Source: a virus. Taken from it: a stretch of DNA of 63,895 nt. Positions 16,646 through 63,347 of the stretch are shown one piece after another. The position numbers and the translations under genes are program-made. Positions within the stretch are counted from its first letter, which is position 1. Each line of letters begins with the position of its first letter. The notes under the pieces are model-generated. The model ran no database searches. It worked only from the letters and a program-made list of their open reading frames with translations, and was not told the origin of the DNA. The stretch lies in IMG/VR virus record IMGVR_UViG_3300021256_000015, positions 1 to 63,895 of that record; one strand, 5' to 3'.

Positions 16646-16737
16646 GTAAGTCAAACCAATGTAAACTGAAAGCAGCAAACATTGATAATGCAAAGGTAGT
16701 GATATTTTTCTAATCGGCAATACCTTTGCGCAAAAAA

Positions 16738-17910
16738 TCACTTTAAATTGTCAAGTACCAGCCTCACTGCATCCGTCGCTTGTTGTGGAGTGACTGATAT
16801 GTAGCTGTAGAGTGCGGTGCTCACTTTGTCCACTCTATGCCCCAGGATATAGTCCACAACGCTCTCACTAACTCCAAGTTGGAATGCGTGTTGAGCGAAT
16901 GACTTGCGGGCTGAATAGAAAATCAGATGTTTAATGCCTGCGGCCTCGGCAAGCTGTTTCATGTGATTGACGAAAACGTAATGCAGCCTATCTTTATTGT
17001 TGTACTTGCCAAATAAGAGGCGGCCATCTCTGCCTTTGTATTTGGCAATTAATGGTTTTGCCTCGTCAGGGATTGCGAACTCCACGAACTTGTTAAGTTT
17101 CGGTTTGTTCTTTGTCTTTGTCCTAACATAGTGGATGCGCTTGCAGTCAGTGAAGTCCACCGAGAGCAAGTCAATCGCATTGATGCCACCCAGGTAGTAA
17201 CTCAACATAAATGCGTCACGGCATATTTGCACACTACGCTTATCGCATTTGGCGTCACGGATCTGTCTTATCTCATCCACCGAGAGCCATGATTGCCTTA
17301 CCTCTTGGGCTGGTAGTTCAAAGCCAACGAAAGGGTCATATTGTGGCACTGCATACCTACACCGCTCTGCGAATTTGAGCAACACCATAATGAACACGAG
17401 TCGGTCACGTCGTGTATTAGGTGTGTAGTTGCGTTCCACCATAAACTTGTTAAAACCTACGAGAGTGAGGTGTGTTATGCGCTCAATTAGCATATTTTCG
17501 TCAATGAACGCTGTGATGCAGCGGTAGATTGTCCTATAGTTAATGCGAGTGCCGTTGGCTATGTTTGCCGTCTCAATGTACTTCTCATAGACTTCCTTGA
17601 ATGTCTTGTGGCGGTTGTATTCAGAGTGGGTGATTGCATAGACCAGTTCCGGGCACGTAAGACCGTCTATGTAATCCAGCTCATCGATTGCGTCCCGATA
17701 GTGTTGCACCATCTTCCGTAGTTTGGTATTGAGAAAGGCGGCGTCACCACGGTTAACGACAATGCCGTTTTTGAACTCGCGTACATTATCTATAATAATA
17801 GATGTTGGAATGTAGCGAGTTGTGCCATTGTGGGCGATGGAGATACGCACTTTGTGTTTACCCCCTTTAAGTACCTTAGTAGGTACAATGACAGTTCTAA
17901 TAGTTGCCAT
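16738..17910 (-). CDS. int: Tyrosine site-specific integrase (390 aa)
   Basis: Bacteroidetes-type N-terminus (KGGKHKVRISIAHNGTTRYIPT arm-binding-like). The C-terminal catalytic region includes SARKSFAQHA...ILGHRV...LYSY. Confidence 0.9.
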   Translation of the reverse strand: MATIRTVIVPTKVLKGGKHKVRISIAHNGTTRYIPTSIIIDNVREFKNGIVVNRGDAAFLNTKLRKMVQHYRDAIDELDYIDGLTCPELVYAITHSEYNRHKTFKEVYEKYIETANIANGTRINYRTIYRCITAFIDENMLIERITHLTLVGFNKFMVERNYTPNTRRDRLVFIMVLLKFAERCRYAVPQYDPFVGFELPAQEVRQSWLSVDEIRQIRDAKCDKRSVQICRDAFMLSYYLGGINAIDLLSVDFTDCKRIHYVRTKTKNKPKLNKFVEFAIPDEAKPLIAKYKGRDGRLLFGKYNNKDRLHYVFVNHMKQLAEAAGIKHLIFYSARKSFAQHAFQLGVSESVVDYILGHRVDKVSTALYSYISVTPQQATDAVRLVLDNLK

Positions 17911-18164
17911 AATTCGACAATAAATCGGTAATAAAATTGAGTGAAAAGATGATTTTTTGACAATTCCAGTGGTCCACCACTGGACGGTTTCTCGATTATT
18001 ATTACCCCTAAACTCCCGAATAGTTCGGCATTTAAGCGATTTATTGTGGAAATATCATCTAATTTTGGATAAATTAGTGATATTGCCGCCCTTATGCTTT
18101 GATACTGTGTACGTTTAGGATGTTTCGAGAAATCGAAGGGACAATAATTCGGTAATTATTGTGA

Positions 18165-18779
18165 TTACTTGACGCTATCTGTAGTTGATGGCGCATTGCT
18201 TACTACTTCTGTATTTTGTTTTTTTGCATCTCTATTTTCAGACACTCTTACTATTGCATTAACGGCAATCAGCAACACAACGCCACTGATAATCATTAAT
18301 ATCATGGCATTTTTTTTGTGCTTTTTCACGTCATTTGGATTTGCCTGCATAGTGGGAACGTCATAGTACTTATAACCTTGCACGGTTTGATATCCCCTGA
18401 CATTATTCCTATATCGCCTATCTATTATTGCCTCTTGCACTACTTCATATCTCCTATATCTTATTGTTTTCTTATTGTAGGATGAGAGGGATTTAAAAAA
18501 GCAGATGACAGCTGCCAGTCCAAATGTCAATACAATAGCGACGATCCACGCTATCATTCTATTGGTTGTGGTTTCAGGCACATACTCAAAATCACTATTA
18601 CCCGTTGGCATGGCATTGTTTGCCAATGGCGGTGGAGTGCCATTGCCTACGCCTCTGATTGGTGTGCTATGAGCATCGCCGAATGTTTGATTACTTACTA
18701 CACGTCCAGCGTCACGTCCTACCTGATTAACTGCGGAACGTACAAACCCTTTGCCGAGATTGCTCAGATAATTTCCCAT
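18165..18779 (-). CDS. Two-TM membrane protein co-transcribed with the repressor (204 aa)
   Basis: TM helices MIAWIVAIVLTFGLAAVICFF and AMILMIISGVVLLIAVNAIV. Starts 5 nt downstream of the repressor stop. Confidence 0.65.
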   Translation of the reverse strand: MGNYLSNLGKGFVRSAVNQVGRDAGRVVSNQTFGDAHSTPIRGVGNGTPPPLANNAMPTGNSDFEYVPETTTNRMIAWIVAIVLTFGLAAVICFFKSLSSYNKKTIRYRRYEVVQEAIIDRRYRNNVRGYQTVQGYKYYDVPTMQANPNDVKKHKKNAMILMIISGVVLLIAVNAIVRVSENRDAKKQNTEVVSNAPSTTDSVK

Positions 18780-18784
18780 AGTGC

Positions 18785-19141
18785 TTATTTGTTTTGATTT
18801 TTTAGATTTTCATTTTCTCTTTGCAGTGCATCAATCGTCCTTTGCTTTTCCTCGACGATTGATTGCATTTCGCCAATTGTGGCGATGAGTTTAGATAGCC
18901 GGTCATTTGTTTGACTGGCTATCTCTGTTTTGTACATGGGGCCATCCCCTCGCATGAGCCATTCGGCAGATACGTTTGGAAAACTCGCAAGTATTAATTC
19001 GATTGTGTCCAGCCCTAATGCACGGCGACCAGTGATGTAATTGTTGAGCGTGGTGTACTTAATCCCACAAGCGATTGCAAAAGCCCGACTGGTGAGGTTA
19101 TTTGCGATAATAAGCTCATTAATTCTCTTAATAATTTCCAT
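18785..19141 (-). CDS. CI-like HTH repressor (118 aa)
   Basis: LTSRAFAIACGIKYTTLNNYITGRR...AEWLMRGDGPMY plus a C-terminal coiled coil. Divergent from the early genes. Confidence 0.75.
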   Translation of the reverse strand: MEIIKRINELIIANNLTSRAFAIACGIKYTTLNNYITGRRALGLDTIELILASFPNVSAEWLMRGDGPMYKTEIASQTNDRLSKLIATIGEMQSIVEEKQRTIDALQRENENLKNQNK

Positions 19142-19194
19142 AATAAAAAAAACAAACTAACGTGTCCTAAAATGTAACCAAATGTTAAATATCT

Positions 19195-19254
19195 TCATTT
19201 GGCGATATTTTTTCTCAAAAAAATTTGCATATATCGTCATCTGGCGATACTTTT
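19195..19254. promoter_or_regulatory. Divergent control region with two TCATYTGGCGATAYTTTT operator-like repeats
   Basis: Repeats at 19195-19212 and 19237-19254 (42 bp apart). The second overlaps a TACTTTTG -7 box. Confidence 0.5.
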
Positions 19255-19335
19255 GCAACAACAAACAAACTTAGATGCAAATATAGTGCATTTGTTTGGA
19301 ATAACAATAAGTATCACTCAAAAAAAATTACCGCT

Positions 19336-19617
19336 ATGAACGAAAAGAAAAATGAGTCAATTGAGACCAAAGAGACTAACGAACAGACACCAGTAAATCA
19401 GTTGTCAAGGAATGAAATTGAGGCAACAGTTGATGAACTGCGAGCCTACAAGTGTGCGGCAGATGGGAAAATCGCATCCCTTGAAAAAGAAATCGAGAAA
19501 AAGAAGGAGTCCGTGAGCTACTGGATGGACTGCTACACCAAAGCGAGAACCGAATGCGACACACTCAAAGAGGAGATTGCAGCCATCGCCACCCTCGCTG
19601 CCAAACTCGCAAAGTAA
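19336..19617 (+). CDS. Coiled-coil protein (93 aa), first rightward gene
   Basis: ATG start after the control region; heptad-rich EKEIEKKKESV...LKEEIAAIATLAAKLAK. Confidence 0.55.
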   Translation: MNEKKNESIETKETNEQTPVNQLSRNEIEATVDELRAYKCAADGKIASLEKEIEKKKESVSYWMDCYTKARTECDTLKEEIAAIATLAAKLAK

Positions 19618-19644
19618 CCCGCGCCGATAAGTCAAACCACCATA

Positions 19645-19717
19645 GCGGCTTTAGCTCAGCGATGAGAGAGCGCTTACAAGAGGTAAGAGGTCATCGGTGC
19701 AATCCCGATAAGTCGCA
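19645..19717 (+). ncRNA. tRNA-shaped element 1 with a 5-nt (or atypical 7-nt) anticodon loop
   Basis: Hand fold gives acceptor gcggctt/aagtcgc, D stem gctc/gagc and T stem atcgg/ccgat. The anticodon arm is cttac-aagag-gtaag and the T loop is tgcaatc. Confidence 0.45.
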
Positions 19718-20005
19718 CAAAGCCCGAAAGGGCAACCAAAGTAGAGTTCCTTGACGTACTTGATTAATCCGCTGAAACCGCTATAAATCAGATGTGGCAA
19801 GTCAGCGATGAGCAATACACTGGAAGTAGCCTAACCGCCAAGACCCTATCAGGCGAGCGGTGAACGCAATAAGAGTGACATCCGAGCGAGAGCGAAAGGC
19901 AGTGATGCGAGAAACCCTGCAAATGCAGGTCACGAATATTGAGGCGTGTAAGACCTCAATAGAGTAAGAACTATCATTGCAAACAATGCAATCCAATTAT
20001 ATTTC
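19718..20005 (+). ncRNA. Structured non-coding RNA candidate (~290 nt) flanked by tRNA-shaped elements
   Basis: No credible ORF. Tetraloop hairpins gccc-gaaa-gggc, cctgc-aaat-gcagg, cattg-caaa-caatg and a 7-bp attgagg/cctcaat stem. Confidence 0.4.
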
Positions 20006-20089
20006 CGACGCAGGTAGTTAAGCATGGAGTGCCAAGTGCCAGAACGCCTCGACATCGAGGAAGTGCGAGTTCGAGCCTCGCCCTGCGTC
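20006..20089 (+). ncRNA. tRNA-shaped element 3 (canonical T arm, 8-bp acceptor, 4-nt 'anticodon' loop)
   Basis: Hand fold gives gacgcagg/cctgcgtc, T arm gcgag-ttcgagc-ctcgc and arm cctcg-acat-cgagg. The D region is expanded and contains the tandem agtgcca agtgcca. Confidence 0.45.
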
Positions 20090-20218
20090 CTAAACTAAAT
20101 TATATCGCTATGATAAAAGTCATAACACAAGCGTTCAAGCGTGATGAGGATGGAAGTTATCCCATAGTACTTGAACAACGCAAAATATATCTACTCGGTA
20201 TTCTAATCTACAAAAGAG

Positions 20219-20554
20219 TCAGAGAGATAAATACACCTGAAATGATACGGAATTGGAAGTCGCTTGCTGAGTAGTTTTTGCTGCTTTGGCTCCAATGTTG
20301 AAAGTACCAAAGAGCACTGACAACCCTCCACCACTATCTTGTTTGTCATCATGGGCGAGGGTTACGTTGAAGTCAACGACTGAAACTGGATATTGATTGA
20401 CGTTAGTCACATTGGCGATTACTGATTTTTCAGAGATATATTGTTGTGAACCTCTGACCAGATTACATTTCGCATCTTTAACGCCTTGATGTGCCTCATT
20501 CACACCCTCTGCAATCTGTACGAGGGTTTCCTTTACAAAAGTCTTTAAGTCCAT
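20219..20554 (-). CDS. Trypco2-like small protein (111 aa), opposite-strand moron
   Basis: MDLKTFVKETLVQIAEGVNEAHQ...VVDFNVTLAHDD...GG...SVSFQVYLSL resembles the trypsin-co-occurring domain 2 pattern. A - strand TAACTTTG box lies upstream. Confidence 0.45.
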   Translation of the reverse strand: MDLKTFVKETLVQIAEGVNEAHQGVKDAKCNLVRGSQQYISEKSVIANVTNVNQYPVSVVDFNVTLAHDDKQDSGGGLSVLFGTFNIGAKAAKTTQQATSNSVSFQVYLSL

Positions 20555-20682
20555 AGTATTTCTGAATTTGATAGTTAGCGATTGCAAAGTTAAGAAATAT
20601 CTCGGATAAATTAGACTTTTGCCACCGTGAAGCAATGCCCTGCCTCACGGTTTTTAACAGAATAACCAACACCTTTAATAAT

Positions 20683-20883
20683 ATGGAAAAAGTAAAAGAA
20701 CCAATCACCCCCAAGTTAAGAGCCATGCTAATCGGCGAAACTCTTACTTATCCCATTGGACGCTCCAACACCATCCGTAAGATTATATGGACTAATATGC
20801 TGAAAGAGCGTTCAGAGGGTATGCGGTTTTCGTGCAATAACGATATTGAGAAAAAAATCGTAATAGTGACGCGGATCGCATGA
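20683..20883 (+). CDS. Hypothetical protein (66 aa)
   Basis: ATG start; ATGA overlap with the next gene. Confidence 0.5.
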   Translation: MEKVKEPITPKLRAMLIGETLTYPIGRSNTIRKIIWTNMLKERSEGMRFSCNNDIEKKIVIVTRIA

Positions 20884-21143
20884 AACAGATGAACGCCCCT
20901 GCCATTCATCTTGAGAATATCTTGATGGCGATGGCAAACAAATCATTCTGCAAAACCACCGCCGCCGAGATTGTAGGCGGACGCACCCGGTTAGTGAGGC
21001 TTGTAGAGAGTGGCGAGATAAGGGCCACAAAGACATCCAGGCAACAGAACGGGCGATGGTATTGCAACGCAGCTGACGTGCTCAGGCACTGTAAGAACAT
21101 GAGAAAAAATCGTAAGTCAAACCAAAAACCAACAGAGAAATGA
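20880..21143 (+). CDS. Putative HTH DNA-binding protein (87 aa)
   Basis: TTAAEIVGGRTRLVRLVESGEIRA...GRWYCNAADVLRH resembles excisionase/MerR-type HTH. Confidence 0.45.
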   Translation: MKQMNAPAIHLENILMAMANKSFCKTTAAEIVGGRTRLVRLVESGEIRATKTSRQQNGRWYCNAADVLRHCKNMRKNRKSNQKPTEK

Positions 21144-21304
21144 GAACAATCAAAACCATCATCGCTGCAATATGCTTTTGCGGCTTGTTTTTCACACCCG
21201 ATGAAAATGCACCATTAAAGACCTATTTTGTATGGTTTTTCATCGAGTTAATATTAGTTACTGTTTGCTACCTCATCTTCAAGAGCGAGGAAAAGCAGTC
21301 ATAG
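21140..21304 (+). CDS. 54-aa membrane protein (absent from the ORF track)
   Basis: MRTIKTIIAAICFCGLFF...FVWFFIELILVTVCYLIF. ATGA overlap; leader motif at 21114-24. Confidence 0.5.
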   Translation: MRTIKTIIAAICFCGLFFTPDENAPLKTYFVWFFIELILVTVCYLIFKSEEKQS

Positions 21305-21312
21305 CACACATG

Positions 21313-21408
21313 GCCAGTGTAGTTTAATGCAGAACAGCAGCGCACTGTGCTTCATCTTGTTTACCAAAACTCCGCTGCAAGGTGTGAGTTCGTTACTCAC
21401 CACTGGCA
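21313..21408 (+). ncRNA. tRNA-shaped element 2 with a 30-nt loop in place of the anticodon loop
   Basis: Hand fold gives acceptor gccagtg/cactggc, D arm gtt-taatgcag-aac and stem gcagcg/cgctgc enclosing 30 nt. The T arm is gtgag-ttcgtta-ctcac. Confidence 0.4.
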
Positions 21409-21610
21409 CTAAAGTCCGTGAGGATTTATGATTTTCATATCAGAAAAAGTAAGTCATAAAAATTTAAATAGCAGAGCCCGAGAGGGTGAAGTTACTTGCA
21501 CAACAAAACAAACTAACGTTGCCCCATTCGTGGGGCACACCCATCACAGTGCGTGGCACACTGAAAAAAGCCACATGGGTAATTATTTTCATAAGTACGA
21601 GTTTGGTTAG

Positions 21611-21642
21611 GCATAGTGGCTGTGAGGTCACTATGCTTTTTT
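21611..21642 (+). terminator. Hairpin gcatagtg-N10-cactatgc plus T6
   Basis: 8-bp stem followed by tttttt. Confidence 0.75.
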
Positions 21643-21885
21643 AAGACACTACTAAACGTTCAACGATAACCCTCTAAACGAAGAACAAAGAGGGCTTCTT
21701 TAAATTTCTGCTATAACCGCAGTCATGGGTGCCACTAACAGAGAGGAGGTGGTTAAACACAAATGCCCATGACTGCACCATCACCACCAGCTGCGGTGGC
21801 AAATGCAGCGATAAATTGAATAGCGGAGCGCAAGAGTGCGCGTAAGAACCGCTCCAGTCGTGTACTGGAACATTCTAATAGCGGT

Positions 21886-21944
21886 GAGGTGTGGCAGCAA
21901 GCAAAGTCATTCCTAATTTTTTAAGTGGGCCACACCTCTTTTTT
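21886..21944 (+). terminator. Long hairpin gaggtgtggc...gccacacctc plus T6
   Basis: 10-bp stem with a 33-nt loop, followed by tttttt. Confidence 0.55.
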
Positions 21945-21969
21945 ATTTCATCATCAAATCATCATCACA

Positions 21970-22200
21970 ATGGAAGAGCCGATCACTTCAAAATCAGTCT
22001 TTGCCGGCACTCGCTGTTATCATTTTGACGCACGTGAAGATGTCCAAGGCGACCCATACCTGCAGATTGTTGAATGTCCGACAAAAGGCGGTAAAGGCAA
22101 ACGCCAGCGTATTTTCATCCATGCCCGCGACCTCGACAAATTCAGGGACGCAGTAGTGGAAATGACAGAGCGTTGCAAAGAGCATTTCGCAAAACGTTAG
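21970..22200 (+). CDS. PUR-alpha-like ssDNA/RNA-binding protein (DUF3276-like, 76 aa)
   Basis: AGTRCYHFDAREDVQGDPYLQIVECPTKGGKGKRQRIFIHARDLDKFRDAV fits the DUF3276 pattern. Confidence 0.55.
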   Translation: MEEPITSKSVFAGTRCYHFDAREDVQGDPYLQIVECPTKGGKGKRQRIFIHARDLDKFRDAVVEMTERCKEHFAKR

Positions 22201-22202
22201 TA

Positions 22203-22297
22203 AGAGTTAAGGCGCTAAAATGGCGTTCAATTTATTGCCTGTAACTTGCTAACAATGATTAAATTTGCATTGAATTAAATAACTATAAGTCAAACCA
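22203..22297 (+). promoter_or_regulatory. Early promoter cassette A
   Basis: AGAGTTAAGGCGCTAAAATGGCG box, TTG -33, TAAATTTG -7 (22260-67), leader AAGTCAAACCA (22287-97). Confidence 0.6.
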
Positions 22298-22313
22298 TTT
22301 AAACTGAATTGAC

Positions 22314-22958
22314 ATGGAACAAAACCCAGTTACATTCATGAGTGCCGAAATCAATGAGATTTCCGCTGCACTATCTGCTTTTCAGGGTACATTGAAACAG
22401 CCTGAGTTAAGCAAAGAAGTAAAAGTGAAGACTCGTCAAGGTGGCGAGTACAAGTTCAAGTATGCAGACCTCTCGACCTGCGTCAAAGCTGCCGCTCCCA
22501 CACTGAAGGAGAATGACCTTGCCGTTACACAGATAATTAGTAGTGGCACCCTCATCACCCTACTCACTCACAAGAGCGGGCAATGGTTTAGGAGTGAAGT
22601 TGGAATTGGCACCCCTGCCGATTACCAGGCACTCGGATCTGCAATCACCTACCTCAAGCGTTACAGCTATTGCGCCATCCTCGGAATTGTCGCTGACAGT
22701 GACGACGATGCAAATGCCGCTTGTGGCAATGAGGCTGACGTGACAGACAGAGGCGCGTCAAAGAGCCGTAAGACTTCCGGAGTGGCGTTCACTGGAGCGC
22801 AACTCAAGAAAGCAATCGCCGAAATTGAGGCGTGCACCACCAATTCCGAGTACACTGAGATTTGGGAAAAATACCAAAAGGAAATCCCAGCTCTGTGTGT
22901 CAAAGGCACCGAGTTCTATAACGCCTGCATCAAAAAAGCTAACGAGTTGCAGGGATGA
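22314..22958 (+). CDS. ERF-family single-strand annealing protein
   Basis: YKFKYADLSTCVKAAAPTL...GSAITYLKRYSYCAILGI matches the ERF superfamily core. Confidence 0.75.
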   Translation: MEQNPVTFMSAEINEISAALSAFQGTLKQPELSKEVKVKTRQGGEYKFKYADLSTCVKAAAPTLKENDLAVTQIISSGTLITLLTHKSGQWFRSEVGIGTPADYQALGSAITYLKRYSYCAILGIVADSDDDANAACGNEADVTDRGASKSRKTSGVAFTGAQLKKAIAEIEACTTNSEYTEIWEKYQKEIPALCVKGTEFYNACIKKANELQG

Positions 22959-25087: not shown

Positions 25088-25089
25088 CT

Positions 25090-25644
25090 ATGAAAATTAC
25101 AAAAGCAAGATTGACCAAAGGAGGCTCATTGGAGGTCTCCTTTGTTGACGATGATGGCAATGATGTCACCATGAAGGGTAAGAACCCAGTACACAATGAC
25201 CTCAAAGAGCGACTGAACGCCCTAATTCCATTCTTTGCGGAGCTCACAGAGCAACGAGAAGTCCCGATGATTGATTGGGACCACTTAGATAGCGAAGAGA
25301 ACGAGGACTTGTTGCATCGCATTTCAGTGACTGGCGTTTCCATCAAAGGCGAAGAGGAGTGCAGCCAGTGCATGATAGTTGGCAAACGCACACTCTCTAC
25401 AAGCAAAGTACTGAGCCTTTGCAGTCCACTCACTGGTTTTGACCATGAGATAGAAACCTATGAGCGTTGTGACGATCTGAGGGACGCCGTTGATGCTTTT
25501 CTCTTTGAGGCAAAAGCCTATGTTAAAGATAAAAAGTGGCAAGTAGTCCACACTGAAATCAACTTCGACGGCAATCCTGATGACCCATTCGCTAATGTCG
25601 ATGTGACGGTAGAGGTGCCAGTTGATGATGCAGTACCAGCATGA
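25090..25644 (+). CDS. Hypothetical acidic protein (184 aa)
   Basis: ATG start 3 nt after the upstream stop; ATGA overlap downstream. Confidence 0.55.
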   Translation: MKITKARLTKGGSLEVSFVDDDGNDVTMKGKNPVHNDLKERLNALIPFFAELTEQREVPMIDWDHLDSEENEDLLHRISVTGVSIKGEEECSQCMIVGKRTLSTSKVLSLCSPLTGFDHEIETYERCDDLRDAVDAFLFEAKAYVKDKKWQVVHTEINFDGNPDDPFANVDVTVEVPVDDAVPA

Positions 25645-27377
25645 GGCCAATATTCGTAACAGAGACACCAAACACATTCAGACTCCAGTTTGACTACAAT
25701 CCCAAAATGATTGATGTCGTCAAGCGCATTCCGAGCAAGCCACGATGGGACGCAACCGATAAGGCGTGGATAGTACAGAAGTCACACCTATCATATCCCC
25801 CTGGACGTGATGCACGCTGGTATGTCTTTGCTCTCGCACAATGGGCGGTGAAATGCCACTATTGCAGCGATGTTAAGACGCGCAACGACGAAAAGGACAT
25901 CACCTATGAATTACCCACTTTGACCGGCATAGATGGCGACCACTATATGCTACTTGACCCATACAAGTACCAGTTAGAGGGTGTGCAGTATGCTTTGCAA
26001 CACAAGCGATGTATCTTTGGCGATCAGCCAGGACTCGGAAAGACGCTGCAAGCCATCTGCGCCGTCGTCAAAGCTCACAAAGAGGCAGAAACTTATGGAG
26101 ACTCGTCCCCAACGCTTATAATATGCCCTGCCAGTCTTAAAATCAACTGGCAGCGTGAGTTCAAGAAATTCGCTGGTAAAAACGCTATCATACTCGATGA
26201 CAGCAACCGTGACAACTGGCAATGTTTCCTCGATATGCGCAGGGGTGATGGTGAACCTCTATGTGATGTGTTCATTACTAACTATGAGAGCCTTAAAAAG
26301 TTCTTTGTAGTTGACATAAAAGAACACAACAAACTCACCTTGCGCCATATCGTCTTTGATGAGCGCATTAAGCTATTCAAGTCTGTAATCATCGACGAGA
26401 GCCACAAATGCAAATCCTCAAAGACACAGCAGAGCAAATTCGTAGAGGGTATTTGTAGAGGTAAGAAGTGGGTATTTGAGTTGACAGGCACACCAGTAGT
26501 CAACAATAACACAGACCTCATCCAGCAGCTGAAGATTTTAGATAGATTGGAGGATTTTGGTGGATATAGGAAATTTGTGGCGAGGTACTGTGATGGACCA
26601 AAGCAGTCGAGCAATATGAAAGAGCTTAATTGGCGGTTGTGGAATTGCTGCTTTTTCCGTAGAGAGAAAAAGGCGGTACTTACACAACTCCCTGACAAAA
26701 GCCGTCAGTATATCGAGTGTGACATCACCAATCGCCGTGAGTATGACGATGCAGAGCGTGACGTGATAAGTTATCTCAGGCAGTACAAGAACGCCAATGA
26801 TGACAAGATACAGCGTGCCATGCGTGGTCAGATTATGGTGCAAATGGGCATTTTGAAACAAGTAGCTGCGAGAGGCAAGATTAAAGCCGTAACGGAGTTC
26901 GTTCACGATGTCATTGACGGTGGTGAGAAGTTAATTCTTTTCGCCTACCTCAAAGATGTTGTTGACGCCCTCAAAGAGCAATTCCCTGATGCCGTTACCG
27001 TCACTGGCAGCGACAACGTGAGAGAAAAGCAGAGAGCAGTAGATAAGTTTCAGAATGACCCTGACTGCAAGTTGATAATCCTCAACTATAAGAGTGGCGG
27101 TACTGGTTTGACTTTGACCGCTGCGAGCCGAGTTGCGTTCATTGAGTTCCCCTGGACGTACAGTGACTGCGAGCAAGCTGAAGACAGAGCGCACCGCAAC
27201 GGCCAGAAGAACAACGTGAACTGCTATTATTTTTTGGGCAATAAGACCATTGACCGATATATGTACCGTGTCATACAGACCAAGAAAGATATAGCGAATG
27301 AAGTCACTGGCACCACCACTCAGATAGATGAGGACATAGTAAGCATCACAATGAACTTGTTTAGTGACCGTCTATGA
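25641..27377 (+). CDS. SNF2-family helicase
   Basis: GDQPGLGKT, IIDESHKCK, LTGTPVVNN and QAEDRAHRNGQ motifs. Confidence 0.9.
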   Translation: MRPIFVTETPNTFRLQFDYNPKMIDVVKRIPSKPRWDATDKAWIVQKSHLSYPPGRDARWYVFALAQWAVKCHYCSDVKTRNDEKDITYELPTLTGIDGDHYMLLDPYKYQLEGVQYALQHKRCIFGDQPGLGKTLQAICAVVKAHKEAETYGDSSPTLIICPASLKINWQREFKKFAGKNAIILDDSNRDNWQCFLDMRRGDGEPLCDVFITNYESLKKFFVVDIKEHNKLTLRHIVFDERIKLFKSVIIDESHKCKSSKTQQSKFVEGICRGKKWVFELTGTPVVNNNTDLIQQLKILDRLEDFGGYRKFVARYCDGPKQSSNMKELNWRLWNCCFFRREKKAVLTQLPDKSRQYIECDITNRREYDDAERDVISYLRQYKNANDDKIQRAMRGQIMVQMGILKQVAARGKIKAVTEFVHDVIDGGEKLILFAYLKDVVDALKEQFPDAVTVTGSDNVREKQRAVDKFQNDPDCKLIILNYKSGGTGLTLTAASRVAFIEFPWTYSDCEQAEDRAHRNGQKNNVNCYYFLGNKTIDRYMYRVIQTKKDIANEVTGTTTQIDEDIVSITMNLFSDRL

Positions 27378-29555: not shown

Positions 29556-29617
29556 TCTCGTAAATTATTACTAACTTTACGGTATTAAACAACTAAAAGT
29601 TTACATAAGTCAAACCA
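29524..29617 (+). promoter_or_regulatory. Early promoter cassette F
   Basis: GGTGTAAAAATGGCG box, TAACTTTA -7, leader AAGTCAAACCA (29607-17). Confidence 0.5.
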
Positions 29618-29632: not shown

Positions 29633-31282
29633 ATGGAAGTACAGCAAATTCCAATCGGGCAGATAAAACCATCGCCCATGAACCCTCGCAAAACATTCGA
29701 CGAGGTTGAGCTGCAAGAGCTTGCTGACAGCATCAAGCATCAGGGGTTGTTGCAGCCTATTACCGTGCGACCAGTCAAGAACACTGACCCAGACCCATTC
29801 GCCGAAGGAGGCTATGAGATTGTGTGTGGTGAGCGTCGCTATCGTGCTTTATTAATCAACGCTGGAGGTAACGATGATTATCATGTAACCTGCATCGTGA
29901 GGAACCTCACCGATGAAGAGGCTTTCGACGCTATGATTACCGAAAATCTACAGCGTCAAGACGTTGATCCGATTGAAGAGGCTTTCGCTTTTGAGCAGCT
30001 TAAAAATCGTGGCTCCACCGTTGAAGAAATAGCTATGCGGTTTGGTAAATCCAATCGCTTTGTTGCTGAACGTATCAAGTTAAACAGCCTAATTCCCGAG
30101 CTACTTTTAAGGGTCAAGGATGGCAGTATGGCAATCAGTGCCGGCTTGATGATAAGCAAACTTGAGGAAGATGACCAGCGCAAATTCCAGGAACGTTATT
30201 CAACGTGGGATAAAATCGGCAAAGAGAATGCCGTGAGATATTGCAATGAGGTTTTCCAGTTCATAGGAAATTCGCCGTGGTATCAAGATGACCGAGTTGA
30301 TTTTGACGGTGGTTGTGGAGTTAAATGCAGTCAGTGTCAATTCAACAACATCAACGCTGGATGCTTATTCTACGAGATGAAAGCGGAAAAGTCCACGGCC
30401 AAATGCACCAACAAGGCAAAATTCCAGGAAAAGAAATTTGCCTACATGATGAGCCTTATTGACGTTCACGCTGACAGTATAGTCAAGATAGGCGAGTCGA
30501 TGGAGCAAGGCAAAATTGCACTGGTGAGCGACATCTCAAGTTACTGCAATGACAGAGCCACCGTCGATAAGTTCCTTGAACTATGTAAGTCAAAAGGCTA
30601 TGAGGTTTTCAAATGTGAAGATGTATTTGAGAGATACAGCAGCTACGATGAAGATGATGAGCGGTTACAAGAAAAACTCGCAAATCATGAAGTATATCAC
30701 TGTCTTTGCATCAAGTCGTGGTACAACTCAATAGAAGTTGAAAATCTATATTACGAGTTCAAGAAAAATATGGAAGGCGTTGACAATGCCACCATTCAAG
30801 AGGGCGCCACCGTTGCAAAACTTACACAAAAATATAAGGATATATGCTCAAAGTGTCGTGATAAACGTGACCTTGAAGTGGCTGGACTATTCTCATTCAG
30901 CAACAGCGAAATAAGCAACGATGACCTCACCGAAGAGGAAAACGATGCGGTTTTCATGTACCTGCTTGCATCTACCAGTTGGGAGTACAGGCGTGACGTG
31001 ATGAAAAAGTCGCACAGGTTGCCATTAGAGGAATATTACGAATATGTTGTGAGTCATCCCGATGAGAGGAACAAAATCTTGCGTGAGTGGTTGCGTTGCA
31101 ATCTCAATCGTGTTGATGACCTTGGAGGATGCTCTGGGCAGTTTGTCGTTGCAAACCAGTGGCATCCTACTGAACTTGCCGAAATCATGGATAAGTTCAA
31201 CACTGACCTTGAGAAAAAGACCAGCAAGATAGTCAAACAACTTGACGAGCTGGGTTATACCACTGACGGTCACAAGAAGTAA
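29633..31282 (+). CDS. ParB N-terminal-domain protein (549 aa)
   Basis: IPIGQIKPSPMNPRK...LADSIKHQGLLQPITVRP...IVCGERRYRA. Confidence 0.85.
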   Translation: MEVQQIPIGQIKPSPMNPRKTFDEVELQELADSIKHQGLLQPITVRPVKNTDPDPFAEGGYEIVCGERRYRALLINAGGNDDYHVTCIVRNLTDEEAFDAMITENLQRQDVDPIEEAFAFEQLKNRGSTVEEIAMRFGKSNRFVAERIKLNSLIPELLLRVKDGSMAISAGLMISKLEEDDQRKFQERYSTWDKIGKENAVRYCNEVFQFIGNSPWYQDDRVDFDGGCGVKCSQCQFNNINAGCLFYEMKAEKSTAKCTNKAKFQEKKFAYMMSLIDVHADSIVKIGESMEQGKIALVSDISSYCNDRATVDKFLELCKSKGYEVFKCEDVFERYSSYDEDDERLQEKLANHEVYHCLCIKSWYNSIEVENLYYEFKKNMEGVDNATIQEGATVAKLTQKYKDICSKCRDKRDLEVAGLFSFSNSEISNDDLTEEENDAVFMYLLASTSWEYRRDVMKKSHRLPLEEYYEYVVSHPDERNKILREWLRCNLNRVDDLGGCSGQFVVANQWHPTELAEIMDKFNTDLEKKTSKIVKQLDELGYTTDGHKK

Positions 31283-36627: not shown

Positions 36628-36719
36628 AGAGTTAAGGTGTTAAAATGGTGGGGGCAAACGCTTGCAAACCTCGTAATTATACGCTAACTTTATAGTAGAT
36701 AATTAAATAAGTCAAACCA
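36628..36719 (+). promoter_or_regulatory. Early promoter cassette C
   Basis: AGAGTTAAGGTGTTAAAATGGTGG, TTG, 20 nt, TAACTTTA, leader 36709-19. Confidence 0.6.
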
Positions 36720-36736: not shown

Positions 36737-37294
36737 ATGAAAACTACAGCGACCACCACCATTCCAGTAGAGATTTACAAAGAGTTGTATGACTATCTTT
36801 GCGACATCATCGCCGAAAATGGCGAGTGCGACGAGGATGGACGTTGCAAAGACTACTTCGAGTTTGAGAGCAAGGATGGCAAGTATTATATCAGCGGCGA
36901 GGTTGAGGCATACTTCGAGTATGTGGATGATAGTTTTGACCACGCATTCGGAACTGAATACTGCGGACACTGGGAATTTGACAAACTCGATGATGTGACC
37001 GTGGAGACTTGCATCTACACTGACGATGATGAGAATGAGACCGAAATCGAGTTTGATGGAGAGGTGTTTGACCATCTGCATGATGAGACCACCATCAAGC
37101 GTGGTGGCATTGAAATCAATCAAGGCGATGAGGTGATTGCAAAGCCACGATTTTTACGCTGGACAGCTTGCAAGTTCCTCTATTTTGACACCATTGACCG
37201 TCTATATTATGTTGAAATCGGGAAGTACAAATATAGCTGTGAAAAACTACTTCCAGCAACAGAGAAAAACCGCCAACTCATTGGCACCTATTAA
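36737..37294 (+). CDS. Highly acidic hypothetical protein (185 aa)
   Basis: D/E-rich N-terminal two thirds (ENGECDEDG..., DDDENETEIEFDGE). Confidence 0.6.
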   Translation: MKTTATTTIPVEIYKELYDYLCDIIAENGECDEDGRCKDYFEFESKDGKYYISGEVEAYFEYVDDSFDHAFGTEYCGHWEFDKLDDVTVETCIYTDDDENETEIEFDGEVFDHLHDETTIKRGGIEINQGDEVIAKPRFLRWTACKFLYFDTIDRLYYVEIGKYKYSCEKLLPATEKNRQLIGTY

Positions 37295-37320
37295 GTCAAA
37301 CCAATAAAAACCAACCAACA

Positions 37321-38263: not shown

Positions 38264-38352
38264 GTTAAGGTGCTAAAATGGTGGTTATTTCATTGCCCGT
38301 AATCCGCCAATAATGACTATCTTTATAGTACAATAAACAATAAGTCAAACCA
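38264..38352 (+). promoter_or_regulatory. Early promoter cassette D
   Basis: GTTAAGGTGCTAAAATGGTGG, TTG, 22 nt, TATCTTTA, leader 38342-52. Confidence 0.6.
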
Positions 38353-61588: not shown

Positions 61589-61777
61589 ATGAAGTACAAC
61601 ATCAAAAGAGACATTCGCCGCCTCTCTGTGAGGATGGCTGTGATAGAACAGAAGTGCGACCTTATAATGGCGCAATTGTCATCCATGAAGATTGGGCATG
61701 ACTTAGATGAGTTGATAGAGAGAATGCACCGCCACGCTCGTTCGATGCGTGATGACTCGAAAAGGGCAAAGCCATGA
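61589..61777 (+). CDS. Small helical protein upstream of the sigma factor (62 aa)
   Basis: First ATG; ATGA overlap with the sigma gene. Confidence 0.45.
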   Translation: MKYNIKRDIRRLSVRMAVIEQKCDLIMAQLSSMKIGHDLDELIERMHRHARSMRDDSKRAKP

Positions 61778-62238
61778 GTGACATTGAGAGTGAGATTGCA
61801 CACCTTTACTCCTGGATTAGAGGTGTGGCGTGTCGCATATCTTGTGACGTGATGGATGGTGAGGATTTGGCGCATGACACAATAATAAAAGCATTACTCA
61901 ATGCGAGTCGGTTTCATGCCAGCAGGGACTTAAAACCGTGGTTAATGGCGATAATGGCAAACACCTACAAAAGCAAGATGCGCCATGTCGCTAAAATTCC
62001 ATTTTGCCCATTGCAGGATGAGTGGACGCCGTTCAGCCGTGCAGATCCAGATGACTATCTTAATTGCAAGTCGATAATAGCCCTCATGCAGTCCGACTCA
62101 CGTCTGCAATCGTTGTGGCTTTATGCAAGCGGTTACGACTATGATGAGATAGCGGTCATGTTGGGCATCAAGCCTGGCACCGTCAAAAGTAGGATTTACT
62201 ATGCACGAAAGCGGTTAAAGTCACTATTGGGCATTTAA
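61774..62238 (+). CDS. ECF-type sigma-70 family factor (154 aa)
   Basis: Region 2 is EDLAHDTIIKALLNASRF...KPWLMAIMANTYKSKMR. Region 4 is LWLYASGYDYDEIAVMLGIKPGTVKSRIYYARKRLKSLL. Confidence 0.8.
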   Translation: MSDIESEIAHLYSWIRGVACRISCDVMDGEDLAHDTIIKALLNASRFHASRDLKPWLMAIMANTYKSKMRHVAKIPFCPLQDEWTPFSRADPDDYLNCKSIIALMQSDSRLQSLWLYASGYDYDEIAVMLGIKPGTVKSRIYYARKRLKSLLGI

Positions 62239-62250
62239 AATGTCAGTAAA

Positions 62251-62339
62251 AGTTAAGGTGTAAAAATGGAGTTCATTCTGTTTGCACACCTCGACAATAT
62301 ACGCTAACTTTACAGTAGATAATTAAATAAGTCAAACCA
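62251..62339 (+). promoter_or_regulatory. Early promoter cassette E
   Basis: AGTTAAGGTGTAAAAATGGAG, TTG, 20 nt, TAACTTTA, leader 62329-39. Confidence 0.6.
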
Positions 62340-62356
62340 TTTAAAATTGTAAAGCT

Positions 62357-62692
62357 ATGCAGACAAAAACAAACTTCCGAGTGAGAGTCATGAACTATGC
62401 TCACCACATCTTCGAGACCCAAAACTACACATGGAGTGCAGCCCTGAAAAAAGCGTGGACGCTCTACCGACTTGTAAAGGCCATGCGCAAAGGCGTTGTT
62501 AAGTTCTACTTCGAGAAAGTAGATGGCAGTGCGAGAGTTGCCTATGGCACCCTCTGCAATCTTCCTGCCGGCATCACTTTCCGTAAAAGGAGTGCCAAAG
62601 CTCCCAACTATAGCACTCTATGCTATTGGGACACCAAAAAGAACGCCTTCCGTTCATTCCGAGTTGAAAACTTCATCGCCGTTGCCGTATGA
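62357..62692 (+). CDS. DUF2693-like (SH3 beta-barrel) protein
   Basis: VVKFYFEKVDGSARVAYGTLCNL...YWDTKKNAFRSFRVENF. Confidence 0.5.
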   Translation: MQTKTNFRVRVMNYAHHIFETQNYTWSAALKKAWTLYRLVKAMRKGVVKFYFEKVDGSARVAYGTLCNLPAGITFRKRSAKAPNYSTLCYWDTKKNAFRSFRVENFIAVAV

Positions 62693-62956
62693 AAGGCTTA
62701 CTCATTACTCCCGAGGCGAGCGTGACCGAGTTAGTCCCTGCGAACGGCAGGGACTTCACGCTTGAAGAGTTGCAGAAGAGCGTTGATGGGTGCATCGAAA
62801 TCATCGACCTCACACCGAAGACCATAATGATTGTGAATGAGGACGGCAAAGGCAGGATGTACCCCGACAGTCATCGCCAAAGGGTGCCGGGCAATATTCC
62901 CGAATGACTACATCGCTGGCAATGCCGTAATGTGTCCAAGTGAAATGGTTAAGTGA
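62689..62956 (+). pseudogene. DUF3846-like gene split by a +1 frame change at the C4 run 62862-65
   Basis: Frame 1 (62689-62907) gives MKGLLITPE...LEELQKSVDGCIEIIDL...VNEDGKGRMYP. The +1 frame continues PTVIAKGCRAIFPNDYIAGNAVMCPSEMVK to 62956. Confidence 0.45.
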
Positions 62957-62963
62957 TTTCAAT

Positions 62964-63005
62964 AGGCGGTTTTCCTAAAAAAAGGTTAAAAAACCGCCTT
63001 TTCTT
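62964..63005 (+). terminator. Hairpin aggcggtttt-N16-aaaaccgcct plus T-tract
   Basis: 10-bp stem. Confidence 0.7.
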
Positions 63006-63097
63006 AAAAATAATTGGGTGCAAATTTGCACACAAAGAAAAAAGGCATTATCTTTGTCACAGAAAAATTAAGTCAAACCAATCAAACTTTTAGAATT

Positions 63098-63283
63098 ATG
63101 ACAGCAACAGCAATTAAAATCCGTTTTGTGGTAGTTGACACAATTACCGGTGGAGAGGTTACAAATCCAGTTCGCTTCGAGAGTGAGGCACTTGCTCAAA
63201 TCCCAGAGTTAGAGAAAAACGACAAAGAGTGCGGATGCTATGAGCCAAACACCTACAAAGTTGAGAGAATTGAGATAATCTAA
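63098..63283 (+). CDS. Hypothetical protein (61 aa)
   Basis: ATG 17 nt after leader motif 63070-80. The upstream part of ORF 63014 covers a TATCTTTG promoter. Confidence 0.55.
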   Translation: MTATAIKIRFVVVDTITGGEVTNPVRFESEALAQIPELEKNDKECGCYEPNTYKVERIEII

Positions 63284-63290
63284 AATCAAC

Positions 63291-63306
63291 GGGGGCGCAA
63301 GCCCCC
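63291..63306 (+). other. GC hairpin gggggc-gcaa-gccccc (no U-tract)
   Basis: Near-twin of the hairpin at 63740-55. Confidence 0.7.
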
Positions 63307-63347
63307 CTCCAAAAACAAAAAGTCAAACCAATTAAACAACCACAACT

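What the first reader, a model, noticed from the sequence alone, without database searches (positions are those of the whole stretch)
16648..63330. Eleven + strand copies of AAGTCAAACCA at a fixed 15-17 nt from start codons, plus one copy in front of a tRNA-shaped RNA
Copies start at 16648, 19629, 21114, 22287, 29607, 36709, 37293, 38342, 62329, 63070 and 63320. Nine sit 15-17 nt upstream of an ATG and are followed by an A-rich tail such as WTTAAAMTGAAAG. Their distance to the -7 boxes varies from 13 to 27 nt. Some copies have no promoter at all: they overlap a stop codon (37293), lie inside a coding region (21114) or follow a hairpin (63320). The motif therefore tracks the start codon rather than the promoter. 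One copy ends 5 nt before tRNA-shaped element 1. One (16648) is an orphan next to the int terminator. This suggests a 5'-UTR element for translation, RNA processing or regulator binding, in a lineage that rarely uses Shine-Dalgarno sites.
Basis: seen in the sequence. Interest (0 to 1): 0.65.

Follow-up and report, generated by a model that had tools for sequence, protein, structure and literature searches.

The report
Phage small RNA and its targets
The repeated 11-base motif in front of ten phage genes is most likely the docking site for a small antisense RNA encoded next to the integrase gene, which would let this gut/rumen Bacteroidales phage switch off a block of its growth genes at the RNA level.

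Summary
AAGTCAAACCA occurs 11 times on the + strand, where 0.02 copies are expected by chance. Nine copies lie 15-17 nt upstream of an ATG.

The "orphan" copy at 16648 is not an orphan. On the - strand it is the seed of a predicted ~73-nt small RNA (sRNA). The sRNA has a Bacteroidota-type promoter (TTG-N19-TACCTTTG), a covarying 5' stem-loop, a single-stranded seed (UGGUUUGACUU) and an intrinsic terminator. It lies just downstream of the integrase gene.

The same cassette occurs in at least 120 viral contigs and in Bacteroidales MAGs. The seed and the 5'-UTR motifs change together from genome to genome: CCA, CAT and CAA endings, and changes at positions 2 and 5. The sequence beyond the core is also more complementary within a genome than between genomes (p = 5e-5).

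The motif sits in front of recombination/replication and accessory genes and one tRNA-like RNA. It does not sit in front of structural genes.

Best reading: the copies are target sites of a phage sRNA that blocks translation initiation of lytic-phase genes. This resembles the antisense-RNA immunity of phages P1 (c4) and P4 (CI). The family is new, has many targets, and is found in Bacteroidota. Expression and the direction of regulation are inferred, not shown.

The parts
16612..16686 (-). Predicted sRNA transcript (~73 nt): 5' stem-loop, single-stranded seed, terminator
   Evidence: It folds into a 5' hairpin, a single-stranded UUGACUUAC and a terminator; MFE -28.5 kcal/mol, z = -4.9. It is the only strong hit of covariance model R1 in the window: 73.1 bits, E = 5.6e-12. 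The window sequence was in the training set, so this shows uniqueness, not independent detection. Twenty-four homologues lie immediately downstream of int in other loci, all on the int strand. The 5' stem-loop covaries, with many G-U pairs, so the - strand is the RNA strand. The 75-codon ORF here is not conserved: in L093 the frame hits a stop inside the seed (sequences).
16691..16698 (-). -7 promoter box TACCTTTG of the sRNA (the -33 TTG is at 16718-16720, spacer 19 nt)
   Evidence: T, A and TTTG are invariant in 22 aligned homologues. All 113 pattern-scan instances with full flanks have TAnnTTTG 25-70 nt upstream of the seed. It is one of only 11 strict TTG-N17-22-TAnnTTTR matches on the whole - strand.
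   Evidence: The core GTTTGAC is invariant in 30 homologues while the flanks vary. The mean predicted unpaired probability of the 8-nt core is 0.93 in 37 distinct homologues.
16613..16645 (-). Intrinsic terminator: hairpin 16621-16645 and U-run 16613-16619. It also serves int.
   Evidence: Terminator-like site found on the - strand. Of 113 instances, 112 have a T-run. Stem sequences differ between homologues while pairing is kept (sequences).
19629..19639 (+). Target site 5 nt upstream of tRNA-shaped RNA 1 (about 19645-19717)
   Evidence: The same arrangement is seen in L031:1710 (5 nt) and L097:8196 (16 nt). Predicted duplex with the sRNA: -23.3 kcal/mol.
21114..21124 (+). Target site inside ORF 20880-21143, 15 nt before the ATG at 21140 (54-aa protein)
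   Evidence: Orthologous sites occur in L040:8650, L095:929 and L097:7233. Duplex -22.3 kcal/mol.
22287..22297 (+). Target site 16 nt before the ATG at 22314 (Erf-like recombinase, first gene of the recombination/replication operon)
   Evidence: Duplex of 26 pairs, -27.2 kcal/mol, reaching the start codon. Conserved in relatives.
29607..29617 (+). Target site 15 nt before the ATG at 29633 (ParB-like protein)
   Evidence: The exact motif lies in front of the orthologue in 14 of 30 fetched relatives, with variant motifs in L002, L004 and L012. Duplex -18.5 kcal/mol.
36709..36719 (+). Target site 17 nt before the ATG at 36737
   Evidence: Duplex of 27 pairs, -30.1 kcal/mol.
37293..37303 (+). Target site overlapping the stop codon of ORF 36737-37294, 17 nt before the ATG at 37321
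   Evidence: Duplex -20.7 kcal/mol.
38342..38352 (+). Target site 15 nt before the ATG at 38368 (first gene of a long operon of small genes that ends with a DNA methyltransferase)
   Evidence: Duplex of 24 pairs, -31.4 kcal/mol.
62329..62339 (+). Target site 17 nt before the ATG at 62357 (WYL_2 / Sm-like fold protein)
   Evidence: Duplex -26.3 kcal/mol.
63070..63080 (+). Target site 17 nt before the ATG at 63098 (61-aa protein)
   Evidence: Duplex -21.5 kcal/mol.
63320..63330 (+). Target site after a GC hairpin, 17 nt before the ATG at 63348
   Evidence: Duplex -21.4 kcal/mol.
27104..27114 (-). Twelfth copy, on the - strand inside helicase gene 25641-27377; status uncertain, probably not part of the system
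   Evidence: No start codon follows it. No - strand copy exists in any relative.

Best explanation
The ten + strand copies are target sites of a phage-encoded, trans-acting antisense sRNA. The eleventh copy (16648) is the seed of that sRNA's gene, read on the - strand.

The sRNA is about 73 nt (16686 to 16612, - strand). It starts from a host-type Bacteroidota promoter just after the integrase stop codon. It consists of a 5' stem-loop, a single-stranded seed (UGGUUUGACUU) and a terminator.

The seed pairs perfectly with AAGUCAAACCA at about -28 to -16 of nine cistrons. In the operon-leading targets, pairing continues through the A-rich tail almost to the start codon. The host lineage rarely uses Shine-Dalgarno sites, and initiation there depends on an open, A-rich leader. 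Such a duplex should therefore keep the 30S subunit off the mRNA and silence these cistrons. In front of the tRNA-like RNA it may interfere with processing.

The sRNA gene sits in the lysogeny module, on the same strand as int and an HTH repressor. The likely role is a post-transcriptional lock on recombination/replication and accessory genes in the lysogen, and possibly immunity against related phages.

Shown here: the motif statistics, the sRNA gene anatomy and its conservation, seed-target covariation, and predicted duplexes.
Inferred: that the sRNA is expressed, that pairing occurs in vivo, that the effect is repression, and when it acts.
For: 1. Gene anatomy on the antisense strand. There is a -33/-7 promoter, a seed, a hairpin and a U-run. 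All 113 IMG/VR instances have the -7 box and 112 of 113 have the T-run. The promoter box and GTTTGAC are the only invariant blocks in 22-30 homologues.

2. It is a structured RNA on that strand. The 5' stem-loop covaries: 89.7% of cells are paired against 71.4% in shuffles (0 of 500 reached it). The covariation score is 0.487, against at most 0.107 when partners are slid. Six of six inner pairs show changes on both sides, with many G-U pairs. The seed core is predicted unpaired with p = 0.93 in 37 homologues.

3. Position. The gene lies directly downstream of int in 26 of 28 viral relatives and 18 of 28 MAG loci, with integrases only 39-81% identical.

4. Genome-specific matching. Genomes whose sRNA complement ends in CCA have 25 gene-start sites ending CCA and none ending CAT or CAA. 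CAT genomes have 12 CAT, 2 CAA and 0 CCA. The CAA genome (L100 and L002, one contig) has 4 CAA. L043 (position 5 C>T) and L098/L099 (position 2 A>T) carry the same change in both the sRNA gene and its targets.

5. Beyond the core. The complementarity between the sRNA 5' part and the target tails averages -6.55 kcal/mol within a genome and -3.99 when genomes are swapped (permutation p = 5e-5). Within the CCA class alone p = 0.007. The genome's own sRNA ranks first of 12 in 7 of 12 genomes.

6. In the window. Predicted duplexes have 14-27 pairs and -18.5 to -31.4 kcal/mol. The nine motif-bearing starts rank 1-7, 9 and 13 of 88 gene starts. Target sites are more accessible than the same region of other genes (0.69 against 0.55, p = 0.012).

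7. One-mismatch target variants lean towards G-U-compatible changes: 6 of 13 overall, and 5 of 7 internal sites that look genuine.

8. All copies are on the sense strand of the downstream gene: 54 to 0 exact copies in the first 30 loci, and 13 to 0 in the pattern-scan loci.
Against: There is no expression data of any kind. The transcription start, the transcript and the pairing are all predictions.

Covariation among same-sense DNA copies would also be expected if all copies, including the one next to int, bound one protein whose specificity drifted. It would also be expected if gene conversion homogenised the copies.

The G-U test is weak (n = 13).

The 11-nt core lies 12-17 nt from the ATG, at the upstream edge of a typical 30S footprint. 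Five of the ten sites (21114, 29607, 37293, 63070, 63320) have only a short or interrupted extension towards the start codon, so direct occlusion is less certain for them.

The near-universal core GTCAAAC across distant clades, and a conserved A at position -2 that does not pair with the sRNA, hint at an extra constraint that pairing alone does not explain.

Several MAG loci show the sRNA gene but no target within 10 kb.

Bacteroidota lack Hfq and ProQ (my own knowledge), so any chaperone is unknown.
Confidence: 0.65

Rival explanations
1. Intrinsic translation signal. The motif plus its A-rich tail would be a ribosome standby or enhancer element, bound by the 30S subunit, protein S1 or rRNA. 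It would replace Shine-Dalgarno in this lineage. The sRNA, if real, would then simply be an anti-RBS.
For: The gap to the ATG is narrow, 12-17 nt, in 76 of 98 unique instances. The copies are sense-strand only. The leaders are A/C-rich and accessible. The core GTCAAAC and an A at -2 are conserved across clades whatever the sRNA flanks are.
Against: The motif is absent from all structural and late genes of the same phage, which need the most translation. It is absent from other phage groups that carry a related Erf gene. Its spelling differs between related phages and always matches that phage's own sRNA gene, whereas a ribosomal partner would be expected to be constant across these related hosts. 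One copy precedes an untranslated tRNA-like RNA. Complementarity to host 16S rRNA could not be tested here.
Confidence: 0.12
2. DNA-level element. The motif would be a promoter or -10-like box for the phage's own ECF sigma factor (gene 61774-62238), or an operator or roadblock site for a phage DNA-binding protein. The copy next to int would then fire antisense into int.
For: The phage encodes an ECF-type sigma (Sigma70_r2 1.6e-8, r4_2 1.8e-9). GTCAAA resembles the -10 box of sigma-E-type promoters (my recollection). The conserved terminator loop reads GGAACC 15 nt upstream of the 16648 copy. The tRNA-like RNA starts 5 nt after the motif, where a transcription start could lie.
Against: There is no -35-like conservation upstream of the motif in 82 gene-associated instances: at most 0.4 bit per position from -50 to -11. 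Conservation extends downstream instead. The motif precedes replication-type genes and not the late operons that a phage sigma usually drives. The late-region intergenic stretches share a different repeat, TTTGAGATTTCA (three copies). Six copies already have a host-type promoter 13-27 nt upstream. A DNA site has no reason to keep a fixed distance to the ATG. This model also does not explain the invariant antisense -7 box or the covarying 5' stem-loop with G-U pairs on the opposite strand.
Confidence: 0.08
3. RNA processing site. An endoribonuclease, from host or phage and possibly guided by the sRNA (RNase III acting on the duplex), would cut at the motif. This would give defined 5' ends for monocistronic mRNAs and for the tRNA-like RNA.
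For: Copies lie at cistron junctions inside operons (21114, 37293, 63320) and 5 nt before a tRNA-like RNA. The distance to the downstream gene is fixed.
Against: No nuclease candidate was found among the proteins scanned; not every ORF was scanned. On its own this does not explain the sRNA gene or the seed-target covariation. As an sRNA-guided cleavage it is a variant of the main explanation rather than a rival.
Confidence: 0.08

Closest known systems
c4 antisense RNA of phages P1/P7 (Rfam C4, RF01695) and the related CI RNA of satellite phage P4
   Same: A small phage-encoded RNA in the immunity/lysogeny region pairs with short complementary sites upstream of lytic genes, including a ribosome-binding region, and keeps them silent (my own knowledge of the P1 and P4 literature).
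   Different: c4 and CI are processed from the same transcript as their targets, have 2-3 target sites, and occur in Proteobacteria. Here the RNA has its own promoter and terminator next to int, has about 10 dispersed target sites at a fixed register before the start codons, and belongs to phages of Bacteroidales, a lineage that largely lacks Shine-Dalgarno sites. There is no sequence or structure similarity: Rfam gave no hit at gathering score or at E<=5.
Multi-target trans-acting sRNAs with a conserved single-stranded seed and a Rho-independent terminator (for example RybB and GcvB in enterobacteria; GibS in Bacteroides)
   Same: The architecture is stem-loop, open seed, terminator. The seed is the most conserved part. 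The targets are translation initiation regions of several mRNAs.
   Different: Those regulate host regulons with imperfect, shorter matches. Here the targets are the phage's own genes, with a perfect match of 11 nt or more, and the sRNA and its targets travel together on one mobile genome.
T4 RegA (translational repressor) and RegB (endoribonuclease)
   Same: A shared short signal in the translation initiation regions of one class of phage genes lets a single phage factor switch the whole class off (my own knowledge).
   Different: In T4 the effector is a protein. Here the predicted effector is an RNA.
Prophage-encoded sRNAs of E. coli (DicF; svsR, PMC12803456; anti-sRNAs AgvB/AsxR, PMC4104026)
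   Same: They are sRNAs carried by prophages and expressed from the prophage (papers listed).
   Different: Those act on host mRNAs or sRNAs, or against unrelated phages. None is described as controlling about ten cistrons of its own genome through one repeated site.

Membership tests
Trans-acting base-pairing sRNA with intrinsic terminator | Own promoter on the strand of the RNA | tested here: met
   TTG-N19-TACCTTTG on the - strand. The -7 box is invariant in alignment A1. It is present in 113 of 113 instances.
Trans-acting base-pairing sRNA with intrinsic terminator | Stable hairpin followed by a U-run at the 3' end | tested here: met
   (terminator-like site on the - strand), (hairpins of -16 to -27 kcal/mol; 112 of 113 have a T-run).
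Trans-acting base-pairing sRNA with intrinsic terminator | Conserved, single-stranded seed | tested here: met
   GTTTGAC is invariant. The predicted unpaired probability is 0.93 over 37 homologues.
Trans-acting base-pairing sRNA with intrinsic terminator | Secondary structure supported by covariation on the RNA strand | tested here: met
   5' stem-loop: covariation score 0.487 against 0.166 in shuffles and at most 0.107 when slid; G-U pairs are present. Caveat: the alignment was fitted to the model.
Trans-acting base-pairing sRNA with intrinsic terminator | Complementary target sites at translation initiation regions that co-vary with the seed | tested here: met
Trans-acting base-pairing sRNA with intrinsic terminator | The RNA is expressed and changes target expression | not testable with these tools
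   No transcriptome or genetics is available. No cultured relative is in INPHARED.
C4 antisense RNA (Rfam RF01695; P1 c4 / P4 CI) | Match to the family covariance model | tested here: not met
   Rfam 15 gave no hit at gathering score over the whole window, and none at E<=5 over 16300-22300.
Shine-Dalgarno site | Purine-rich GGAGG-like core 5-10 nt from the start codon, complementary to the CCUCC of 16S rRNA | tested here: not met
   The motif has no GGAG-like core and ends 12-17 nt from the ATG.
ECF-sigma-dependent promoter | Conserved -35 element at a fixed spacing upstream of the -10-like box | tested here: not met
   At most 0.4 bit per position from -50 to -11 in 82 instances.
tRNA (the element downstream of 19629) | Recognised by ARAGORN or by the Rfam tRNA model; 7-nt anticodon loop | tested here: not met
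   ARAGORN finds 0 genes in the window. Rfam gives no tRNA hit at E<=5. The fold shows a cloverleaf with a 5-nt loop.

The most novel reading that the evidence does not exclude
A previously undescribed RNA-based lysis/lysogeny lock is shared by a large family of temperate phages of gut and rumen Bacteroidales. One ~70-nt sRNA, encoded next to int (or next to a DUF5053 gene in another clade), has a near-frozen seed. It silences about ten lytic-phase cistrons at a fixed register upstream of start codons that lack a Shine-Dalgarno site. The core seed is shared by more than 100 otherwise divergent phages, so a resident prophage would also silence incoming relatives. That would amount to a broad, sequence-programmable superinfection immunity. 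The CCA, CAT and CAA variants would then be emerging immunity groups.
Probability: 0.35. Interest if true: 0.85.

Novelty: new variant of a known kind. Interest (0 to 1): 0.75.

Why it matters
Post-transcriptional control in Bacteroidota is poorly understood. The lineage has no Hfq or ProQ and largely ignores Shine-Dalgarno sites (my own knowledge). Almost nothing is known about how its abundant temperate phages decide between lysogeny and lysis.

If this reading is right, it provides three things. The first is a natural sRNA regulon with about ten clean targets and built-in covariation, which is an ideal system for learning how an sRNA blocks initiation without a Shine-Dalgarno site. The second is a candidate RNA-based immunity determinant for a phage family that is common in human gut and rumen metagenomes. 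The third is a compact, programmable repression module (seed plus 11-nt tag) for Bacteroides genetics.

It also shows that an "orphan" copy of a repeated motif can be the gene of the regulator.

Tried and rejected
1. tRNA 3' end or attP core. The motif ends in ACCA and one copy is next to int. Rejected: the CAA and CAT variants break the CCA, and the upstream hairpin is not a T-arm.

2. ECF-sigma promoter (GTCAAA as a -10 box, GGAACC in the terminator loop as a -35 box). Rejected: the other copies have no -35 element.

3. Lambda-Int-type arm sites, which share AAGTCA by my recollection. Rejected: there is only one copy near int and the rest are at gene starts.

4. ops/RfaH-like or nut-like antitermination sites. 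Rejected: there are too many copies, some inside operons, all at a fixed distance to the ATG. No NusG-like protein was seen among the scanned ORFs.

5. Another anti-motif inside the tRNA-like/ncRNA cluster. A search with G-U allowed found none.

6. Technical dead ends. RNAalifold on the 30-sequence MAFFT alignment gave no structure because the hairpins were misaligned. A loop-anchored ungapped count and a column-wise DP for the terminator stem both failed because of bulges and register shifts. Terminator covariation is therefore argued from the sequences only.

7. Searches that found nothing. Literature searches for the motif, the seed and the concept found nothing relevant. INPHARED gave no match by megablast or blastn. 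Rfam gave no family.

8. Complementarity to host 16S rRNA was not tested, because no host rRNA sequence was in hand.

Full report
**1. The observation**

AAGTCAAACCA occurs 12 times in the 63,895-nt window, against 0.02 expected. Allowing one mismatch adds only two sites, both on the - strand.

Nine + strand copies end 15-17 nt before an ATG that opens a plausible gene. Six copies have a Bacteroidota-type -7 box (TAnnTTTG/A) 13-27 nt upstream, and five of those six also have a -33 TTG. Five copies have no such box. One copy overlaps a stop codon, one lies inside an ORF, and one follows a hairpin. The copy at 19629 ends 5 nt before an RNA that folds like a cloverleaf. Neither ARAGORN nor Rfam calls that RNA a tRNA.

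**2. What the window is**

The window is a circular contig with a 127-nt terminal overlap. It is a temperate siphovirus-like phage. The gene map is:
- integrase, 16738-17910 (-)
- HTH_3 repressor-like gene, 18785-19141 (-)
- Erf, SSB, helicases, VRR-NUC and a ParB-like protein
- methyltransferases and a TAGT glycosyltransferase
- terminase, portal, major head protein and tape measure protein
- a 2,290-aa tail protein
- an ECF-type sigma factor, 61774-62238

Relatives occur in rumen and gut Bacteroidales MAGs: Prevotellaceae, Muribaculaceae and Porphyromonadaceae. The promoters are of the Bacteroidota -33/-7 type. The motif precedes recombination/replication and accessory genes and one tRNA-like RNA. 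It never precedes a structural gene.

**3. Relatives**

Loci were fetched through the ParB-like, Erf and integrase proteins. The exact 11-mer sits in front of the orthologous genes even where the proteins are only 36-45% identical. Among 98 unique instances, 76 have an ATG 12-17 nt downstream. All exact copies are on the sense strand of the downstream gene. The distance from the -7 box varies from 8 to 38 nt. Conservation extends 3' of the motif (ATAAAAC) and not 5' of it.

**4. The turning point**

The 12 instances without a downstream ATG include a conserved class: a hairpin with loop GGAACCACC, then the motif, then 30-40 nt, then GCAAAGGTA. Read on the other strand, this is TTG-N19-TACCTTTG, a perfect -33/-7 promoter. 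It is followed by about 25 variable nt, then UGGUUUGACUU, then a GC hairpin and a U-run.

In the window this predicts an RNA of about 73 nt from about 16686 to 16612 (-), starting 40-50 nt after the integrase stop codon. It folds into a 5' hairpin, a single-stranded UUGACUUAC and a terminator, with z = -4.9. The scan tool finds the terminator on the - strand.

The same cassette follows int in 26 of 28 viral relatives and in 18 of 28 MAG loci. These integrases are only 39-81% identical to the window's.

In alignments of 22-30 homologues the only invariant blocks are the -7 box and GTTTGAC.

All 113 instances with full flanks have the -7 box, and 112 have the T-run.

A covariance model finds exactly one strong hit in the window, and that hit was a training member. 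It finds 24 hits in the int-linked loci, all on the int strand.

The 5' stem-loop covaries, with 0 of 500 shuffles reaching the observed values. The score is 0.487, against at most 0.107 for slid partners. It contains many G-U pairs, which fixes the - strand as the RNA strand.

The seed core is predicted unpaired with p = 0.93 across 37 homologues.

The 75-codon ORF that overlaps the sRNA in the window is not conserved (sequences).

**5. Does the sRNA go with the motif?**

The spelling of the 5'-UTR motif differs between genomes and matches the sRNA gene of the same genome.

| sRNA complement in the genome | Gene-start sites found in that genome |
|---|---|
| ends CCA | 25 CCA, 0 CAT, 0 CAA |
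| ends CAT | 12 CAT, 2 CAA, 0 CCA |
| ends CAA (L100 and L002, one contig) | 4 CAA |
| L043, position 5 C>T | same change in the sRNA gene and its gene-start sites |
| L098/L099, position 2 A>T | same change in the sRNA gene and its target |

The match extends beyond the core. The 5' part of the sRNA is complementary to the tails between motif and ATG. The window clade has AAACUGAAAG, another clade AUAAAACCA, and the CAT class UUUAAUUCA. With the 11-nt core excluded, the duplex energy averages -6.55 kcal/mol within a genome and -3.99 between genomes (p = 5e-5). Within the CCA class alone p = 0.007.

In the window the predicted duplexes have 14-27 pairs and -18.5 to -31.4 kcal/mol. The motif-bearing starts rank at the top of all 88 gene starts. 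The target sites are more accessible than the same region of other genes (p = 0.012).

One-mismatch target variants lean towards G-U-compatible changes, but n is small.

**6. Mechanism**

Shown: the anatomy, conservation, structure and strand of the sRNA gene, and its co-variation with the targets.

Inferred: the sRNA is made by host RNA polymerase, in lysogens and early in infection. It pairs at about -28 to -16 of its targets, and further towards the ATG in the four operon-leading targets. This blocks 30S binding on leaders that lack a Shine-Dalgarno site. The block may be helped by cleavage of the duplex.

The location of the gene, in the lysogeny module on the strand of int and the HTH repressor, argues for repression of lytic-phase genes. 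This would be a second, post-transcriptional lock alongside a classical repressor-operator pair. Two TCATYTGGCGATA repeats flank or overlap the first rightward promoter.

I put 0.65 on "target sites of this sRNA". About 0.6 of that weight is on repression of translation as the outcome.

**7. Rivals**

*Intrinsic translation enhancer.* This is unlikely as the sole function. Late genes lack the motif, its spelling is phage-specific, and one copy precedes an untranslated RNA. The universal GTCAAAC core and the A at -2 leave room for a second constraint.

*ECF-sigma promoter or DNA operator.* There is no -35 element, and late intergenic regions carry a different repeat. This model explains neither the fixed distance to the ATG nor the antisense promoter and covarying stem-loop.

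*RNA processing site.* This is possible mainly as an sRNA-guided variant of the main model.

*The - strand copy at 27104.* It is not conserved in any relative and is probably chance.

**8. Comparison with what is known**

The closest systems are the antisense-RNA immunity of P1/P7 (c4) and P4 (CI), and multi-target seed-type sRNAs. It works like them but is not a member of the C4 family, since Rfam gives no hit.

It differs from them in four ways. It has its own promoter and terminator next to int. It has about ten dispersed targets with a perfect match of at least 11 nt at a fixed register. Its host lineage largely lacks Shine-Dalgarno sites. It is widely distributed among uncultured Bacteroidales phages.

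No paper in the searchable library mentions the motif, the seed or such a system in Bacteroidota phages. No cultured phage in INPHARED carries it.

**Verdict**

The best explanation is a new variant of a known kind. Interest is 0.75.

Noticed in passing
window 19645-19717, about 20007-20092, about 21313-21408 (+): There is a cluster of tRNA-shaped RNAs with non-canonical anticodon loops. Element 1 folds as a cloverleaf with a 5-nt loop. ARAGORN and Rfam reject all of them. In relatives ARAGORN calls 'tRNA-???' with 2-nt or 4-nt anticodons at the equivalent place (L120, L095, L033, L038).
   Followed up: partly
window 61774-62238 (+): The phage encodes an ECF-type sigma factor (Sigma70_r2 plus r4_2). 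It lies after the tape-measure region and just upstream of the 62329 promoter and motif. Its promoters were not identified.
   Followed up: partly
window 22206, 35394, 36631, 38264, 62252 (+): An 18-nt element, GTTAAGGYGYTAAAATGG, has five copies where 0.01 are expected. It lies about 20 nt upstream of the -33 element of four motif-bearing promoters and one further site. It is also present in relatives (AAAATGGTGG). It is probably an activator or repressor site of the delayed-early promoters.
   Followed up: partly
window 286, 13772, 49170 (+): TTTGAGATTTCA occurs three times exactly, each in an intergenic stretch of the structural/late region. It is a candidate late-promoter element, possibly the target of the phage sigma.
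   Followed up: no
window 19195-19207 and 19237-19249 (+): Two direct repeats, TCATYTGGCGATA, lie 42 bp apart between the HTH repressor gene and the first rightward gene. The second overlaps the -7 box TACTTTTG. They are likely operators.
   Followed up: no
window 16359-16393 (-): There is a strong match to the Rfam DUF805b RNA motif (50.2 bits, E = 2.5e-11) upstream of a 66-aa - strand ORF (16110-16310) that has no Pfam hit. It lies between the sRNA and the tail genes, near where attP is expected.
   Followed up: no
window 27104-27114 (-): A twelfth exact motif copy lies on the opposite strand inside the helicase gene, so the helicase mRNA carries the sRNA seed sequence. It is not conserved in relatives. 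It may be chance (about 1-2%) or a window-specific sponge.
   Followed up: partly
window 1-127 and 63769-63895: A 127-nt terminal direct overlap shows that the window is a circularly closed contig, a complete genome of about 63.8 kb.
   Followed up: yes
loci L149, L160, L161 and 32 others from the IMG/VR pattern scan: In another large phage clade, mostly from human gut samples, the same sRNA cassette follows a DUF5053-domain gene (Pfam 7e-29) instead of an integrase. The promoter-seed-terminator cassette therefore moves as a module.
   Followed up: partly
L138:9989 (+): In one MAG prophage of the CAT class, a motif copy (AAGTCAAACAT) sits 1 nt before the integrase start codon itself. There the int mRNA may also be a target.
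   Followed up: no
window 21970-22200 (+) and 62357-62692 (+): Two small proteins have folds linked to nucleic-acid binding: DUF3276/PurA-like (1.1e-9), just upstream of the Erf promoter, and WYL_2 with an Sm-like fold (7e-24), which is itself encoded behind a target site. They are candidate helpers of the sRNA. This is pure speculation.
   Followed up: no
sRNA terminator loop, window 16628-16638: In all CCA-class sRNAs the terminator loop is invariant (GGGUGGUUCCC) and displays UGGUU, which is identical to the 5' end of the seed and complementary to the AACCA of the target. The CAT class has a different loop. This may be a kissing contact, or a second function on the other strand.
   Followed up: no
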